Shown here piece after piece: positions 8,750 through 13,770 of a stretch of 25,346 bases of DNA. The notes below the pieces were generated by a model that was not told the origin of the DNA, did no database searches, and saw only the letters and a program-made list of their open reading frames with translations. Source of the DNA: Luteimonas sp. (GTDB taxonomy: Bacteria; Pseudomonadota; Gammaproteobacteria; Xanthomonadales; Xanthomonadaceae). The stretch spans positions 1 through 25,346 of the forward strand of contig JAYTAY010000001.1 of NCBI GenBank assembly GCA_043737255.1, read 5' to 3'. The position numbers and the translations under genes are program-made. Each line of letters begins with the position of its first letter. Position 1 is the first letter of the stretch.

Positions 8750-9805
8750 TCATCGCAATGAATCGTTGATCTTCTCGAGCGTGGCGATGCCTGGCGACAA
8801 CTCGGCCGCATTCAAGGTATTCAACGGCGCGGCGACGGTATTGAGATGCCCGTGCAAGTCATCCGCCACCGGATCGACGAACAACAATCCCGTCACCACT
8901 TCGCCCGCCGCCTGCCGCTGCTGGATGATGTTCATCGCAGCGATGCGGTCGCGCGGATCGTAGGCATCGTCCAGCTTGCGCAGGCGCAGTACCGAGCCGT
9001 TGTGTTGCTCGACCTCGATGGTCTCGCCCGCGCGGTAATCGACCGCAATCTCGGCGCGCGGCACCATCACGTCGAGCTGGTTGACGGCGTCGTTGTGTTC
9101 GCGCACGTAGTCGTAGCTTTTGGTGCTGCCGGCGTGGTTGTTGAACGCGACGCATGGGCTGATGACATCCAGGAATGCGGCGCCGCGATGCGACAGCGCG
9201 CCCCTGATCAGCGGCACCAGTTGCGGCTTGTCACCCGAGAAGCTGCGTGCAACATAAGTCGCACCCAGTTGCAGCGCCATCATCACCAGGTCGATCGGAC
9301 TGTCGCTGTTGGCGACGCCTTTCTTCGACATCGAACCCTGGTCGGCGGTCGCGGAAAACTGGCCCTTGGTGAGTCCGTACACGCCGTTGTTCTCGACGAT
9401 GTAGACCATGTTCACGCCGCGCCGGATCGCATGCACGAACTGGCCGATGCCGATCGATGCAGAATCGCCATCACCGGATACACCGAGATAGATCAGTTCG
9501 CGATTGGCGAGATTGGCGCCGGTCAGCACCGACGGCATGCGCCCGTGCACGGTGTTGAAGCCGTGCGACTGGCCTAGGAAGTAGTCCGGCGTCTTGCTGC
9601 TGCAGCCGATGCCCGACAGCTTGGCGACGCGGTGCGGCTCGATGTCGAGTTCCCAGCAGGCCTGGATGATGGCCGCGGAGATCGAGTCGTGGCCGCAGCC
9701 TGCGCACAGCGTGCTGATTTTCCCCTCGTAATCGCGACGGGTAAAGCCGATCGCGTTGCAGCCGAGGGAGGGGTGGTGGAGTTTTGGCTTGGTGAGGTAG
9801 GTCAT
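8750..9805 (-). CDS. 2-oxoacid:ferredoxin oxidoreductase beta subunit (KorB-like, TPP-binding)
   Basis: CAGCGH, SGIGCSS, HGRMPSV, TPP motif GDGDSASIG...ENNGVYGLTKGQ, and ISPCV. The substrate cannot be determined from sequence. Confidence 0.92.
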   Translation of the reverse strand: MTYLTKPKLHHPSLGCNAIGFTRRDYEGKISTLCAGCGHDSISAAIIQACWELDIEPHRVAKLSGIGCSSKTPDYFLGQSHGFNTVHGRMPSVLTGANLANRELIYLGVSGDGDSASIGIGQFVHAIRRGVNMVYIVENNGVYGLTKGQFSATADQGSMSKKGVANSDSPIDLVMMALQLGATYVARSFSGDKPQLVPLIRGALSHRGAAFLDVISPCVAFNNHAGSTKSYDYVREHNDAVNQLDVMVPRAEIAVDYRAGETIEVEQHNGSVLRLRKLDDAYDPRDRIAAMNIIQQRQAAGEVVTGLLFVDPVADDLHGHLNTVAAPLNTLNAAELSPGIATLEKINDSLR

Positions 9806-10017
9806 GACTGCAACTCAACGATGCCGCAAATTCCGAGGTCGTCGTGACCAGCCAGCCGGCTGTTGAACATTACGCGAGGGCGGGAACCCAGCGACTTTTG
9901 TTTCGGGGTTCCAACGCACCCAAGCGAGAGCCGCTGGGTTGACCACCTTACGCTGTTGAACAACGCTTGCGCCTTCGCGGTAATGACGAGCAACAGCGAC
10001 AGCAGCGTCCGCCTCAT
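9802..10017 (-). CDS. Putative 71-aa bridging ORF between alpha and beta genes (REP-derived)
   Basis: Its ATG (10017-10015) overlaps the alpha stop and its TGA (9804-9802) overlaps the beta ATG. It starts after GGGAGA. Translation is not demonstrated. Confidence 0.45.
   Translation of the reverse strand: MRRTLLSLLLVITAKAQALFNSVRWSTQRLSLGCVGTPKQKSLGSRPRVMFNSRLAGHDDLGICGIVELQS
9845..9868 (+). repeat. Nested hairpin module, copy 3 (TGACCAGCCAGCCGGCTGTTGAAC)
   Basis: Read directly. Same ends as copies 1 and 2 with a longer loop. Confidence 0.75.
9940..9961 (+). repeat. Nested hairpin module, copy 4 (TGACCACCTTACGCTGTTGAAC)
   Basis: Read directly. Preceded by GCCGCTGGGT, as copy 2 is preceded by GCCACTGGGT. 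Followed by AACGCTT, as copy 1 is followed by AAGCGCTT. Confidence 0.75.
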
Positions 10018-11855
10018 GCAACTTTCTCCCGTTGCATCGCCGGACGCACTCGCGCCGCAATGGCATCGGCGATGAAACGTGCCGTAACCGGCGTGCCGTC
10101 GTAATGCAACACCGCAACCAGCCGCGCCGGATCGATGCCGAACTCGTTGACCAGCAACGAGCGCAATTGAGCATCGCGGTTCTGTTCGATCACGAACACC
10201 GATTCATGCGCATCGATGAAGGCGCGCACGGATTCAGGAAACGGAAACGCGCGTACACGCAGCGTGTCCAGCGCGATTCCTTCATCGCGCAAACACTCGA
10301 TGGCCTCCTGCATCGCCGGACTGGTCGAACCGAAATAGATCGCGCCATGTTTCGCCGGCACATCCGACTGGCGCACGATCGGCTGCGGCACCAGCGCCTT
10401 GGCGCTGTCGAACTTCTGCAACAACCGTTGCATGTTGTAGACGTAATCTGCACCGCGCTCGGAATATTGCGCCTGCGGATTGCGCGAGGTGCCGCGGGTG
10501 AAATATGCGCCCTTGTCGGGGTGCGTGCCCGGATAGGTGCGGTACGGGATGCCGTCGCCGTCGATGTCCTTGTAGCGCGCGAACTCCCTGCCCGTATCCA
10601 GCACATCGGCGGTCATCACCTTGCCGCGGTCGTAGGCGCGCGCGTCGTTCCACACGAACGGCGCGCACAGGCGCTGGTTCATGCCGATGTCGAGGTCGGT
10701 CATCACGAACACCGGCGTCTGCAGGCGGTCGGCAAGATCGAGCGCGGCGGCGGCAAATTCGAAACACTCATGCGGATCTTCCGGAAACAACAGCACGTGC
10801 TTGGTGTCGCCATGCGACGCATACGCGCACGCCAGCACATCGGACTGTTGCGTGCGCGTCGGCATGCCGGTCGACGGCCCGCCGCGCTGCACGTCGATGA
10901 TGGTCACCGGAATTTCGGCGAAATAGGCCAGGCCGATGAACTCGTTCATCAACGACACGCCCGGGCCCGACGTCGTGGTGAATGCACGCGCGCCATTCCA
11001 CCCGGCGCCGACCACCATGCCGATCGATGCGATCTCGTCCTCGGCCTGGATGATCGCGAACCGGTGCTCGCCGGTGACGGGATCGACGCGGTATTTCTGG
11101 CAATACTTTTCGAACGCCTCGGCCAGCGACGACGACGGCGTGATCGGATACCACGCGCATACCGTCGCTCCGCCGTAGACACAACCTAGTGCGGCTGCGG
11201 CGTTGCCCTCGACGAAGATGCGGTCCCCGACCGCATCGGCCGCCTGCACGCGCAGGCCGATCGGATATTGCAGATGCTCGCGCACCCAGTCGCGGCCCAG
11301 ATGCAACGCCTCGATGTTGGGCTTCAGCAACTTCTCCTTGCCCTTGTACTGCGCAGCGATGAGCATCTCGATCGTCGGCACGTCGATGTCCAGCAGCGCG
11401 CTCAGCGCACCGACATACATGATGTTCTTGAACAACTGGCGCAGGCGCGGATCGCTCCAGGCCTCGTTGCAGATCTGGGTCAGCGGCACGCCGAGGATAT
11501 GGATGTCGTCGCGGAATTTCGACTTCGGCAGCGGCTTGCTGTTGTCGTAGAACAGATAGCCGCCCGGTTCGATCTCGGCGACATCGACGTCCCAGGTCTG
11601 CGGGTTCATCGCCACCATCAGGTCGACACCACCACGCCGTCCGAGCCAGCCGCGTTCGGACACGCGCACCTCGTACCATGTCGGCAAACCCTGAATGTTC
11701 GACGGAAAGATGTTGCGCGGGCTGACCGGCACGCCCATGCGCAGGATCGCCTTGGCGAACAGTTCGTTGGCGGATGCGGAACCGGAACCGTTGACGTTGG
11801 CGAACTTGACGACGAAGTCGTTGGTGGATTGCAGGGGAGCGTGGGCGGGGGTCAT
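10014..11855 (-). CDS. 2-oxoacid:ferredoxin oxidoreductase alpha subunit (gamma-alpha fusion, KorA-like)
   Basis: N-terminal FANVNGSGSASAN gamma-like domain, WYPITPSS, QAEDEIAS, TSGPGVSLM and QRGGPSTGMPT. Start at ATG 11855 after GAGGT. Confidence 0.92.
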   Translation of the reverse strand: MTPAHAPLQSTNDFVVKFANVNGSGSASANELFAKAILRMGVPVSPRNIFPSNIQGLPTWYEVRVSERGWLGRRGGVDLMVAMNPQTWDVDVAEIEPGGYLFYDNSKPLPKSKFRDDIHILGVPLTQICNEAWSDPRLRQLFKNIMYVGALSALLDIDVPTIEMLIAAQYKGKEKLLKPNIEALHLGRDWVREHLQYPIGLRVQAADAVGDRIFVEGNAAAALGCVYGGATVCAWYPITPSSSLAEAFEKYCQKYRVDPVTGEHRFAIIQAEDEIASIGMVVGAGWNGARAFTTTSGPGVSLMNEFIGLAYFAEIPVTIIDVQRGGPSTGMPTRTQQSDVLACAYASHGDTKHVLLFPEDPHECFEFAAAALDLADRLQTPVFVMTDLDIGMNQRLCAPFVWNDARAYDRGKVMTADVLDTGREFARYKDIDGDGIPYRTYPGTHPDKGAYFTRGTSRNPQAQYSERGADYVYNMQRLLQKFDSAKALVPQPIVRQSDVPAKHGAIYFGSTSPAMQEAIECLRDEGIALDTLRVRAFPFPESVRAFIDAHESVFVIEQNRDAQLRSLLVNEFGIDPARLVAVLHYDGTPVTARFIADAIAARVRPAMQREKVA

Positions 11856-11935
11856 GCGGTGACCTCTGCACCAACGTACTGTATGCAAGCCGAAATGCTT
11901 TCAGCCGTCATTCCCGCGCTTAGCTTGCACTTCAT
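11852..11935 (-). CDS. Putative 27-aa bridging ORF (MKCKLSAGMTAESISACIQYVGAEVTA)
   Basis: Its ATG overlaps the flavoprotein stop (ATGA), 4 nt after GGGAGG. Its TGA overlaps the alpha ATG. Translation is not demonstrated. Confidence 0.45.
   Translation of the reverse strand: MKCKLSAGMTAESISACIQYVGAEVTA
11905..11918. repeat. Truncated CGTC-family REP fragment
   Basis: CCGTCATTCCCGCG resembles the start of the CGTC REP arm seen at 930-957 (inverted). Confidence 0.55.
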
Positions 11936-13770
11936 GCCGCCTCCCTTGCCCGTTTGTTGCGGCATCCAGCGCCCGCATAAGTCTCCAGCAACAAGAACTT
12001 CTGCATGTCCCACGCCCCGGTCGGGCACCGCTCGGCGCACAGGCTGCAATGCAGGCACACATCCTCGTCCTTCACCATCACCCGCATCGTCTTCAGCGGT
12101 TCGGACACATACAGCGCCTGCTCAACATTCAGCGCCGGCGCGGTCAGCCGCGTGCGCAACTCGTCCTCCTCAGCATTCATGGTGAAAGTAATGCAGTCGG
12201 TCGGGCAGATATCCACGCAGGCATCGCATTCGATGCATTTGTCTTTCGTAAACACGGTCTGCACGTCGCAGTTCAGGCATCGCTGTGTTTCCTTCAGCGC
12301 CGTCTGCGCGTCGAAGCCCAACTCCACTTCGACATGCATGCTGTCGAGTTTCTTCGCCGCTTCCGACCACGGCACCAGATAACGCTCGTCGGGTGAGATG
12401 GCGTTGTTGTAGCTCCATTCGTGAATGCCCATCTTCTGCGACTGCAACTGCACCATCGGCTCGGGACGCTCGCGCGTGTCCTCGCCCTGCAGCAGCTTGT
12501 CGATCGAGATCGCCGCCGCATGGCCGTGCGCGACCGCCCAGATGATGTTCTTCGGGCCGAACGCGGCATCGCCGCCGAACAGCACGTGCGGCAGCGACGA
12601 CTGGAACGTCACCTTGTCGACCACCGGCATGCCCCACTCGTCGAAGTCGATGCCGGTGTCGCGTTCGATCCACGGGAACGCGTTCTCCTGGCCGACCGCG
12701 ATCAGCACCTCGTCGCAGGCATGGAATTCGTCGGGTTCACCGGTCGGCACCAGCTTGCGCCGGCCGGTGTCGTCGTATTCGGCGCGCACGCGTTCGAAGG
12801 TCATGCCGGTCAGGCGACCGCTCGCATGCACGAACGTTTTCGGCACGCGGTAGTCGAGGATCGGGATGCCTTCGTGTTGCGCATCCTCTTTTTCCCACGG
12901 GCTGGCCTTCATTTCGTCAAAGCCGGAACGCACCAGCACCTTGACGTCGGTGCCGCCAAGGCGACGCGCGCTGCGGCAGCAGTCCATCGCGGTGTTGCCG
13001 CCGCCGAGCACCAGCACGCGCTTGCCGACCGCGGTGACATGGCCGAAATAGACGGATGAGAGCCAATCAAGGCCAACGTGGATATTGGCCGCGCCCTCCT
13101 TGCGTCCGGGCAGTTCGAGATCACGCCCGCGCGGCGCACCGCTGCCGACGAAGACCGCGTCATAGTTTTTCGCCAGCATCGCGCGCATCGAGTCGATGCG
13201 ATGGTTGCCGATGAACTCGACGCCGAGATCGAGGATGTAATCCGTTTCCTCATCGATGACTTCCTCGGGCAAACGGAAGCGCGGCACCTGCGTGCGCATG
13301 AAGCCGCCGGCTTTCGGATCGGCTTCAAAGACGGTGACGTGGTAGCCGATCGGCGCCAGATCGCGCGCGACGGTCAGCGACGAGGGACCCGCGCCGATGC
13401 AGGCGATGCGTTTGCCGTTGTGCGTGGCCGCGGGCTTGGGCATGCGTGCGCGCACGTCGCCCTTGTGGTCGGCGGCGACGCGTTTGAGACGGCAGATCGC
13501 GACCGGTTCCGGTTTCTCGCTCATCGAAGCGGGGCCGTTGTTCTCCTCGACACGCCCCCGCCGGCATGCCGGTTCACAGGGACGATCGCAGGTGCGGCCG
13601 AGGATTCCGGGAAACACGTTGGAGTGCCAGTTGACCATGTACGCATCGGCGTAACGGCCATCGGCGATCAGGCGGATGTACTCGGGCACCGGCGTGTGCG
13701 CCGGGCAGGCCCACTGGCAGTCGACGACCTTGTGGAAGACGTCGGGATTGCGAATATCGGTAGGCTTCAA
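11932..13770 (-). CDS. GltD-like FAD/NADPH oxidoreductase with a C-terminal 2x[4Fe-4S] ferredoxin domain (KorC-like)
   Basis: CQWACPAH and CDRPCEPACRR Fe-S motifs, GAGPSS (FAD), GGGNTAMDC (NADPH), and C-terminal CIECDACVDICP and CLHCSLCAERCP. TTG start after GGAG. Confidence 0.9.
   Translation of the reverse strand: MKPTDIRNPDVFHKVVDCQWACPAHTPVPEYIRLIADGRYADAYMVNWHSNVFPGILGRTCDRPCEPACRRGRVEENNGPASMSEKPEPVAICRLKRVAADHKGDVRARMPKPAATHNGKRIACIGAGPSSLTVARDLAPIGYHVTVFEADPKAGGFMRTQVPRFRLPEEVIDEETDYILDLGVEFIGNHRIDSMRAMLAKNYDAVFVGSGAPRGRDLELPGRKEGAANIHVGLDWLSSVYFGHVTAVGKRVLVLGGGNTAMDCCRSARRLGGTDVKVLVRSGFDEMKASPWEKEDAQHEGIPILDYRVPKTFVHASGRLTGMTFERVRAEYDDTGRRKLVPTGEPDEFHACDEVLIAVGQENAFPWIERDTGIDFDEWGMPVVDKVTFQSSLPHVLFGGDAAFGPKNIIWAVAHGHAAAISIDKLLQGEDTRERPEPMVQLQSQKMGIHEWSYNNAISPDERYLVPWSEAAKKLDSMHVEVELGFDAQTALKETQRCLNCDVQTVFTKDKCIECDACVDICPTDCITFTMNAEEDELRTRLTAPALNVEQALYVSEPLKTMRVMVKDEDVCLHCSLCAERCPTGAWDMQKFLLLETYAGAGCRNKRAREAA

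What the first reader, a model, noticed from the sequence alone, without database searches (positions are those of the whole stretch)
11852..11935. Second relay ORF (27 aa) at the flavoprotein-alpha junction, same architecture
Seen: the flavoprotein gene ends GGGAGGCGGC-ATGA and alpha starts GC-ATGA-CCC, so GCATGA flanks a 76-bp spacer containing a CGTC-REP fragment. The ATG overlapping the upstream stop has a strong SD (GGGAGG). It opens MKCKLSAGMTAESISACIQYVGAEVTA, whose TGA overlaps the alpha ATG. Both internal junctions therefore read gene-ATGA-peptide-ATGA-gene. Each case needs the right frame (1 in 3) and no stop, so two of two is unlikely by chance. Caveat: alpha has its own plausible SD (GAGGT). 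Inference: selection keeps translation continuous across all three subunits, for stoichiometry or to avoid Rho polarity.
Basis: partly seen in the sequence, partly recalled or inferred. Interest (0 to 1): 0.7.

Follow-up and report, generated by a model that had tools for sequence, protein, structure and literature searches.

The report
Relay reading frame bridging korC and korA
A fragment of a mobile palindromic repeat sits where two enzyme-subunit genes once overlapped stop-to-start, and it is kept readable as a throw-away 27-codon frame that probably hands ribosomes from one gene to the next; the same rule holds in relatives and at other operon junctions of this genome.

Summary
On the minus strand the flavoprotein gene (korC-like) ends in ATGA at 11935-11932. 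That ATG opens a 27-codon frame whose TGA (11854-11852) overlaps the ATG of the 2-oxoacid oxidoreductase alpha gene (11855).

In relatives, the commonest state of this junction is a direct 4-nt (A/G)TGA overlap. The 76-nt spacer is a decayed REP insertion, homologous to 178- and 181-nt inserts in two genomes of the same genus.

- **Inserts at this junction:** 9 of 14 independent inserts keep a frame running from the upstream stop to the downstream start, against 1.5 expected (P about 2e-7). Lengths within the window's lineage (76, 154, 178, 181) differ by multiples of three.
- **Alpha-beta junction:** 13 of 18 inserts do the same, against 3.0 expected.
- **Genome-wide:** 13 of 48 REP-bearing same-strand spacers are exact relays, against 2.3 expected. 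They include nuoF-nuoG and the CoA-transferase A-B junction.
- **Peptides:** they are not conserved, and the REP arm is read in different frames. What is kept is translation, not a product.

The closest known case is the mycobacterial MIRUs. An earlier follow-up in this scan reached the same reading for the sister junction (9802-10017). Translation itself, and the benefit it brings (re-initiation or protection from polarity), remain untested.

The parts
11932..13770 (-). korC-like NAD(P)-binding flavoprotein gene with Fe-S domains (612 aa from TTG 13770; the start is not verified). Its last codons carry the Shine-Dalgarno sequence for the next start.
   Evidence: ORF list. Pfam Fer4_20, Pyr_redox_2 and Fer4_7. 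NCBIfam NAD(P)-binding protein / GltD-like, below the curated cut-offs.
11940..11945 (-). GGGAGG, 4 nt upstream of ATG 11935. It is the Shine-Dalgarno sequence of the ancestral alpha start and now serves the relay frame.
   Evidence: Sequence. GGAGGCGGC(A/G)TGA is conserved at the end of korC in many genera, with or without an insert.
11852..11935 (-). Relay ORF of 27 codons plus stop. Its ATG overlaps the korC stop (ATGA) and its TGA overlaps the korA ATG (ATGA).
   Evidence: No Pfam family.
11903..11918 (-). Remnant of one arm of a REP/REPIN-type palindromic repeat (CGCGGGAATGACGGCT).
   Evidence: Many copies in the genome. It aligns with the right arm of the full two-arm insert at the same junction in G002 and G003.
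11863..11866 (-). GAGG, 7 nt upstream of the korA ATG. It is a Shine-Dalgarno-like site lying inside the relay ORF.
   Evidence: Sequence. GGAGG or GGAG sits at the equivalent place in G002, G003 and G017.
10014..11855 (-). korA, 2-oxoacid:acceptor oxidoreductase alpha subunit (613 aa).
   Evidence: Pfam POR, POR_N and PFOR_II. TIGR03710 at 582 bits, above its cut-off.
9802..10017 (-). Sister relay ORF of 71 codons across a two-arm REP insert between korA and korB. Same ATGA...ATGA architecture.
   Evidence: Earlier scan finding e1-5299693.
8750..9805 (-). korB, beta subunit (351 aa, TPP-binding).
   Evidence: Pfam TPP_enzyme_C. The NCBIfam beta-subunit families are the best matches, below their cut-offs.

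Best explanation
The 27-codon frame is a translational relay with no function as a peptide.

Originally the korC stop and the korA start overlapped as (A/G)TGA, so ribosomes finishing korC could restart on korA. A REP-type mobile palindrome inserted at that overlap and left one copy of the four letters on each side. The upstream copy keeps the korC stop, the old start codon and its GGGAGG. The downstream copy keeps the korA start.

Ribosomes that start at AUG 11935 read through the repeat remnant and stop at UGA 11854-11852, on top of the korA AUG. There they can re-initiate, helped by GAGG 7 nt upstream. Variants that close or shift this frame are removed by selection.

Shown: the architecture, the ancestral overlap, the homology of the insert, and the statistical maintenance of frame and openness.

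Inferred: that the frame is translated, and that re-initiation is the benefit.
For: - **Ancestral state:** a direct 4-nt overlap is the commonest state in relatives, at korC-korA in 33 of 83 loci and at korA-korB in 56 of 97. A contig of a related organism in a public glacier metagenome also reads as a direct overlap.
- **Insert homology:** the window's spacer aligns with the right arm of the 178- and 181-nt inserts of G002 and G003. Lengths of 76, 154, 178 and 181 nt are all 1 mod 3 and all open. Spacer identity is 56-71%, against about 88-90% for the flanking genes.
- **Independent inserts at korC-korA:** they come from different repeat families. 9 of 14 are exact relays against 1.49 expected, P = 1.8e-7. 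Without the window's lineage it is 7 of 12 against 1.27, P = 1e-5. 11 of 14 lengths are 1 mod 3, P = 7e-4.
- **korA-korB junction:** 13 of 18 against 3.04 expected, P = 7.5e-8.
- **Within-sequence control:** spacer interiors are open in the relay frame versus the third frame in 10 vs 5 (C-A), 15 vs 2 (A-B) and 28 vs 8 (REP spacers of this genome). In that last set the relay frame alone is open in 24 spacers and the third frame alone in 4, sign test P = 1.8e-4.
- **Genome-wide:** 13 of 48 REP-bearing same-strand spacers are exact relays against 2.29 expected, P = 2e-8. Examples are nuoF-nuoG, CoA-transferase A-B, batC-batD and ftsB-ispD.
- **No fixed element frame:** REP arms are read in all stop-free frames, so the ORF is not a fixed element-borne frame.
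- **Precedent:** MIRUs (PMC12548453, PMC3184786).
Against: - There is no expression or ribosome data. No RNA run holds this organism's stretch.
- korA has its own Shine-Dalgarno-like GAGG and could start independently.
- The window alone is only about 1 in 70 by chance.
- Exceptions exist. L098 has no relay at korC-korA. L030 and L051 end 3 nt before or 8 nt after the start. L112 and L047 have none at korA-korB.
- The genome-wide survey rests on a home-made gene caller, and at least one hit was a real small gene (ccmD).
- Short korA-korB spacers are also mostly 1 mod 3 without any relay ORF. This is unexplained.
- Loci from kin are not fully independent.
Confidence: 0.72

Rival explanations
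1. The frame is translated and selected, but not for re-initiation. Ribosome traffic across the spacer keeps the mRNA covered, preventing Rho-dependent polarity, repeat-hairpin formation or nuclease entry. korA starts independently at its own GAGG-AUG.
For: GAGG, GGAG or GGAGG lies 6-9 nt before the korA ATG in the window, G002, G003 and G017. A few relatives have frames that end 3-16 nt before the start rather than on it. These would still cover the spacer.
Against: Most frames end exactly on the start codon: 22 of 27 long korA-korB spacers. Mere coverage would not require that. The 76-nt spacer is not unusually structured (z = -0.14) and no terminator-like site lies in it.
Confidence: 0.2
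2. The relay is a built-in property of the mobile element, as proposed for MIRUs. The element targets stop-start overlaps and carries its own open frame of fitting length, so no host-level selection after insertion is needed.
For: The MIRU precedent, with tetranucleotide direct repeats and ORFs overlapping both neighbours (PMC3184786, PMC12548453). (A/G)TGA lies on both sides here. In G017 an 8-nt repeat, ATGACGCC, flanks the insert. A Y1 transposase (RAYT-like) gene is present in the genome.
Against: The inserts come from unrelated repeat families and have very different lengths (40-869 nt). The same REP arm is read in all its stop-free frames. Within one lineage the insert changed length by 3, 24 and 102 nt and stayed in frame. 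In this genome 23 of 48 REP-bearing same-strand spacers are not in the relay frame.
Confidence: 0.12
3. Coincidence: GC-rich spacers are often open, and the frame match is one in three.
For: For this spacer alone the shuffled, frame-randomised probability is 0.15, and jointly with the sister junction about 0.014. The finding was picked post hoc.
Against: Comparative and genome-wide excesses have P between 1e-5 and 1e-8, with the window left out. All length changes in the lineage are in frame.
Confidence: 0.05
4. The 27-aa product is a functional micropeptide, for example an assembly factor of the enzyme.
For: In three other genera a real, conserved 95-97-aa membrane protein gene sits in the equivalent place between korA and korB.
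Against: The peptide is encoded by a repeat remnant. The homologous stretch is 56-71% identical at DNA level and the peptides differ widely among G002, G003 and the window. No Pfam match. Many relatives have no insert at all.
Confidence: 0.02

Closest known systems
MIRUs, mycobacterial interspersed repetitive units (Supply et al. 1997, as described in PMC12548453 and PMC3184786)
   Same: A short interspersed repeat lies between co-transcribed genes. It contains an ORF whose ends overlap the stop of the gene before and the start of the gene after (-4 spacing). Four-letter direct repeats are seen at filled versus empty sites. It is read as a way to insert with little harm to expression.
   Different: Here the element is a palindromic REP/REPIN-type repeat of a gammaproteobacterium (order Lysobacterales), not a MIRU. 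Its arms are read in several frames and the inserts vary from 40 to 869 nt, so the frame is not a fixed part of the element. The same rule holds for unrelated repeat families in Beta- and Alphaproteobacteria at the same junction. In-frame length change after insertion is documented.
Translational coupling by stop-start overlap (ATGA / TGATG; termination-reinitiation), reviewed in PMC12548453
   Same: Both ends of the relay are classic -4 overlaps, each with a Shine-Dalgarno-like site inside the preceding frame. The ancestral korC-korA and korA-korB junctions are such overlaps.
   Different: Two couplings in series run through a non-functional frame, rather than one direct coupling between functional genes.
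Bicistronic design and leader-cistron expression cassettes (short first cistron whose stop overlaps the start of the gene of interest; cited in PMC12548453)
   Same: A short ORF whose only role is to deliver ribosomes and melt structure at the downstream start.
   Different: That is an engineered device at the 5' end of an mRNA. This is natural, internal to an operon, and produced by a mobile-element insertion.
REP sequences in intercistronic regions (for example the hisJ-hisQ and malE-malF REPs of enterobacteria; Stern et al. 1988, cited in PMC3184786)
   Same: A REP-type palindrome lies between genes of one operon.
   Different: From general knowledge, not read here: those REPs are untranslated and act as mRNA-stability barriers that lower downstream expression. 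Here the repeat lies inside a maintained reading frame.

Membership tests
MIRU-type intercistronic repeat with coupled ORF | Interspersed repeat present in many copies in the genome | tested here: met
   The REP arm motif is found about 328 times (up to 2 mismatches) in the 2.46-Mb assembly; many BLAST hits.
MIRU-type intercistronic repeat with coupled ORF | ORF within the insert whose start overlaps the upstream stop and whose stop overlaps the downstream start | tested here: met
   ATGA at 11935-11932 and ATGA at 11855-11852, with 27 open codons between.
MIRU-type intercistronic repeat with coupled ORF | Empty sites in relatives and a short direct repeat at filled sites | tested here: met
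   Direct (A/G)TGA overlap in 33 of 83 relatives at this junction. (A/G)TGA on both sides of filled sites. ATGACGCC on both sides in G017.
MIRU-type intercistronic repeat with coupled ORF | The ORF is a fixed, oriented part of the element (same frame in all copies), with sequence kinship to MIRUs | tested here: not met
   REP arms are read in three (left arm) or two (right arm) frames among relay copies. The inserts belong to unrelated repeat families. Sequence kinship to MIRUs was not tested; no MIRU sequence was at hand.
REP / REPIN (RAYT-associated palindromic repeats) | Short GC-rich hairpin unit, often as an inverted pair | tested here: inconclusive
   The full insert in G002 and G003 has two inverted arms, each ATTCCCGC-GAAG-GCGGGAAT. 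In the window only part of one arm remains, and the spacer fold is not better than shuffles (z = -0.14).
REP / REPIN (RAYT-associated palindromic repeats) | A Y1 (RAYT) transposase gene in the genome, flanked by the repeats | tested here: inconclusive
   One Y1_Tnp match above cut-off (33.3 bits, contig C141:3872-4222). Its flanks were not examined.
Translational coupling by termination-reinitiation | Stop and start overlap or lie within a few nt, with a Shine-Dalgarno site inside the upstream frame | tested here: met
   GGGAGG lies 4 nt before ATG 11935, and GAGG lies 7 nt before ATG 11855.
Translational coupling by termination-reinitiation | Downstream translation depends on upstream translation | not testable with these tools
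   This needs reporter mutants or ribosome profiling. No RNA or ribosome data exist for this organism.

The most novel reading that the evidence does not exclude
A general rule of operon evolution in Proteobacteria: DNA that lands in a stop-start overlap survives only if it keeps a ribosome relay. Such junctions therefore accumulate obligatorily translated junk frames. These frames are under selection for openness but not for sequence, and they can mature into new genes. The orphan 95-97-aa membrane protein gene sits exactly in the relay position between korA and korB in three Lysobacterales genera. It has no Pfam family and was found in 1 of 151 genomes of the order. It would be one such birth.
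Probability: 0.3. Interest if true: 0.75.

Novelty: new variant of a known kind. Interest (0 to 1): 0.55.

Why it matters
The finding is quantitative evidence that a reading frame can be kept by selection purely because it is translated, not for its product. That matters in several ways:
- It explains how mobile repeats can colonise tightly coupled operon junctions without breaking subunit balance.
- It warns annotators that such small frames are neither genes nor noise.
- It offers natural test cases for how far termination-reinitiation can be chained.
- It points to a steady source of translated, unconstrained sequence from which new small proteins could arise.

Tried and rejected
- **RNA folding.** The korC-korA spacer (z = -0.14) and the korA-korB spacer (z = -0.89) fold no better than shuffles. 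I make no claim that a hairpin masks the korA start.
- **Promoter and terminator scan.** Nothing lies in either spacer.
- **Sequencing runs.** DNA holders are sediment metagenomes, probably the source sample. RNA runs hold only small shares from relatives, so there is no expression evidence. The many joints skipping about 160-178 nt in those metagenomes come from other organisms and were not interpreted.
As a 6-nt target duplication it is not conserved in G002 or G003. Only (A/G)TGA is.
- **Alternative alpha start.** TTG 11888 is rejected because homologues align from ATG 11855.
- **Relay peptides.** No Pfam family.
- **A false hit.** One genome-wide REP relay (contig C287, 54 codons, between ccmC and ccmE) is by position and size the real gene ccmD, with a chance match to the REP motif. 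It was removed from the counts.
- **Alpha start rule.** An a priori rule (nearest ATG upstream of the conserved core) scores L042/L043 as failures. A start 11 codons further up would make them exact relays. I kept the conservative count.

Full report
**What is there.** The window is a whole 25-kb contig of a 2.46-Mb, 509-contig metagenome-assembled genome (83% complete, GC 62.6%). Its nearest named relative at this locus is Lysobacter sp. CFH 32150, and its DNA is held by sediment metagenomes.

Three genes lie head to tail on the minus strand:
- A 612-aa flavoprotein with Fer4_20, Pyr_redox_2 and a 2x[4Fe-4S] domain (13770-11932).
- The alpha subunit of a 2-oxoacid:acceptor oxidoreductase (11855-10014; TIGR03710 at 582 bits).
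- The TPP-binding beta subunit (9805-8750).

I call them korC, korA and korB for short. The substrate was not established.

**The observation.** It is exact.
- korC ends GCA TGA.
- The ATG at 11935 overlaps that stop and has GGGAGG 4 nt upstream.
- It opens 27 codons, MKCKLSAGMTAESISACIQYVGAEVTA.
- Its TGA overlaps the korA ATG at 11855, which has GAGG 7 nt upstream.
- The spacer holds a 16-nt arm of a palindromic repeat (CGCGGGAATGACGGCT, 11918-11903) that is abundant in the genome.

**Chance for the window alone.** With the flanks fixed, the spacer shuffled (keeping dinucleotides) and the frame randomised, an exact relay arises with p = 0.15 here. At the korA-korB junction p = 0.095. Two of two is therefore about 1 in 70. 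That is suggestive but not decisive for a feature picked post hoc.

**Ancestral state.** I fetched the whole operon from 20 relatives and 80 further genomes, and placed the genes by tblastn.
- korA-korB is a direct ATGA/GTGA overlap in 56 of 97 scorable loci.
- korC-korA is a direct overlap in 33 of 83. Five more have a TGATG overlap, and most alphaproteobacterial loci have longer overlaps.
- GGAGGCGGC(A/G)TGA at the end of korC is conserved across genera.
- A contig of a related organism in a glacier metagenome also reads as a direct overlap.

So both ATGA motifs in the window are the two halves of one ancestral stop-start overlap, split by an insertion.

**The insert.** G002 and G003 (same genus) carry 178- and 181-nt inserts at korC-korA. 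Each has two inverted arms (CGTCATTCCCGCGAAGGCGGGAATCCAGTGACTT ... its complement). The window's 76 nt align with the right arm and the sequence after it; the left arm and loop are deleted. G017 has a 154-nt version flanked by an 8-nt direct repeat, ATGACGCC.

All four lengths are 1 mod 3, and all four frames are open from the (A/G)TG overlapping the korC stop to the TGA overlapping the korA ATG. The shared part of the spacer is only 56-71% identical, against about 88-90% for the flanking genes. The peptides differ widely.

This is the signature of a frame kept open with no constraint on its product.

G001, also of the genus, has a direct GTGA overlap here. **G001 is an unpublished genome.** Three things rest on it: this statement, its 156-nt korA-korB spacer (frame ending 16 nt before the ATG), and the CAGCGA variant of the repeat arm. 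It enters the korA-korB statistics only as one failure.

**Independent inserts.** Other genera carry unrelated repeats at the same two junctions.

A success was defined as an ORF that starts (ATG, GTG or TTG) within -2 to +10 nt of the upstream stop and whose stop overlaps the downstream start. One representative was taken per sequence cluster.

| Junction and set | Exact relays | Expected | P |
|---|---|---|---|
| korC-korA | 9 of 14 | 1.49 | 1.8e-7 |
| korC-korA, without the window's lineage and G017 | 7 of 12 | 1.27 | 1e-5 |
| korA-korB, window and the real small gene left out | 13 of 18 | 3.04 | 7.5e-8 |

On frame alone, 11 of 14 korC-korA lengths are 1 mod 3 (P = 7e-4).

Near misses:
- A stop 3 nt before the ATG (G010).
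- A stop 8 nt after the ATG (L051).
- Stops 7, 12 and 16 nt before the ATG (L048, L051 and G001 at korA-korB).

True failures are L098 (C-A) and L112 and L047 (A-B).

An extreme case is L042. Its 869-nt array of repeat units between korA and korB stays open for 289 codons in the relay frame.

**Within-sequence control.** This control uses the real sequences and needs no shuffling. Spacer interiors are open in the relay frame versus the third frame in 10 vs 5 (C-A) and 15 vs 2 (A-B).

**Genome-wide survey.** I built a simple gene caller for the laid genome: codon log-odds, greedy selection, and start choice by coding score plus Shine-Dalgarno match plus codon type. It recovers the three kor starts.
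- Of 612 same-strand spacers of 31-400 nt, 56 are exact relays against 27.4 expected.
- Among spacers with the REP motif, leaving out the window contig and one false hit, 13 of 48 are exact relays against 2.29 expected (P = 2e-8). Of these 48, 25 are 1 mod 3.
- Among all 52 REP-bearing spacers, the relay frame alone is open in 24 and the third frame alone in 4 (P = 1.8e-4).
- Flanking genes of several hits are classic operon partners: nuoF-nuoG, CoA-transferase A-B, batC-batD and ftsB-ispD.

The caller is crude, so these figures need repeating with curated annotation. Its start choice uses no relay feature.

**Element or host?** Among relay copies the left REP arm is read in all three frames and the right arm in both of its stop-free frames. 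Insert lengths vary widely. The frame is therefore not a fixed part of the element, unlike the picture given for MIRUs. It looks like a filter on which insertions, and which later length changes, survive. A Y1 transposase (RAYT-like) gene is present, but its link to these repeats was not examined.

**Mechanism.**
- *Shown:* the architecture, the ancestry, and the maintenance of frame and openness.
- *Inferred:* ribosomes start at AUG 11935, either re-initiating after korC or binding at GGGAGG. They read 27 codons, stop on the korA AUG and re-initiate with help from GAGG.
- *Main alternative:* translation matters only for covering the mRNA (anti-Rho, anti-hairpin), and korA starts on its own. 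The strong preference for stops placed exactly on the start codon favours re-initiation. The few near-miss frames, and the Shine-Dalgarno-like site of korA itself, leave room for the alternative.

There are no RNA or ribosome data for this organism. Folding and terminator scans gave nothing.

[quoted passage not shown] It reads this as minimising harm. PMC3184786 adds tetranucleotide direct repeats at filled sites and ORFs overlapping both neighbours.

The present case works the same way, but it is not a MIRU. It is a palindromic REP-type element in a gammaproteobacterium, with no fixed frame. The rule extends to unrelated repeats in many Proteobacteria and to other operons of this genome.

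An earlier follow-up in this scan (e1-5299693) reached the same reading for the sister junction at 9802-10017. My tests of that junction agree with it.

**Verdict.** It is a new variant of a known kind. Interest is moderate: the principle has a 1997 precedent and the sister junction was already reported. However, the evidence for selection on translation alone, and the genome-wide reach, are new.

Noticed in passing
L027:1392-1679 (-), L045:4711-5004 (+), L054:4383-4673 (+): A real, conserved 95-97-aa hydrophobic protein gene sits exactly in the relay position between korA and korB in three Lysobacterales genera, coupled at both ends (TGATG or ATGA upstream, ATGA downstream). L045 and L054 are 33% identical over the full length (E = 4e-10). 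It has no Pfam family and was found in 1 of 151 genomes of the order searched. It may be a gene born from a relay frame.
   Followed up: partly
L042 (MAG JAZKFJ010000005.1), between korA and korB: An 869-nt array of tandem repeat units stays open for 289 codons, in a frame starting 3 nt after the korA stop and ending on the korB ATG. A related MAG (L043) has a 200-nt, 66-codon version.
   Followed up: partly
korA-korB junction in L050, L056, L067, L053, L086, L099, L052, L088, L060, L071, L062: Short spacers of 1, 1, 1, 7, 7, 7, 10, 13, 16, 16 and 19 nt are all 1 mod 3, although most have no start codon at the korA stop and so no relay ORF. Genome-wide short gaps in G000 show no such excess. 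Unexplained; kinship among the loci may inflate it.
   Followed up: partly
G000 contigs C166:491-652, C257:771-1112, C74:752-982, C344:2686-2859: Other REP-bearing relay frames (55, 115, 77 and 59 codons) bridge nuoF-nuoG, the CoA-transferase subunit A-B genes, batC-batD and ftsB-ispD in the same genome.
   Followed up: partly
G000 C166 and C291; L021 (G001, unpublished) korA-korB spacer: The consensus left REP arm carries TGA in one frame (CCAGTGAC). Copies read in that frame inside relay ORFs lack the stop (for example CAGCGA in G001). This could be selection or a subfamily difference.
   Followed up: no
L030 (G010) korC-korA spacer, about 326 nt: The spacer repeats the last ~37 nt of korC, including its stop, after a palindromic insert. 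That suggests a long duplication at insertion. The 100-codon frame from the first stop ends 3 nt before the korA ATG.
   Followed up: no
G000 contig C141:3872-4222 (-), locus L128: The single Y1_Tnp (IS200/RAYT-like) transposase match in the assembly (33.3 bits). It is a candidate mobiliser of the REP family. Its flanks were not examined.
   Followed up: no
L048 korC-korA junction: korA appears to start at TTG, and its only upstream partner is a 13-codon relay frame whose TGA overlaps that TTG. A weak start codon like this may depend on coupling.
   Followed up: no
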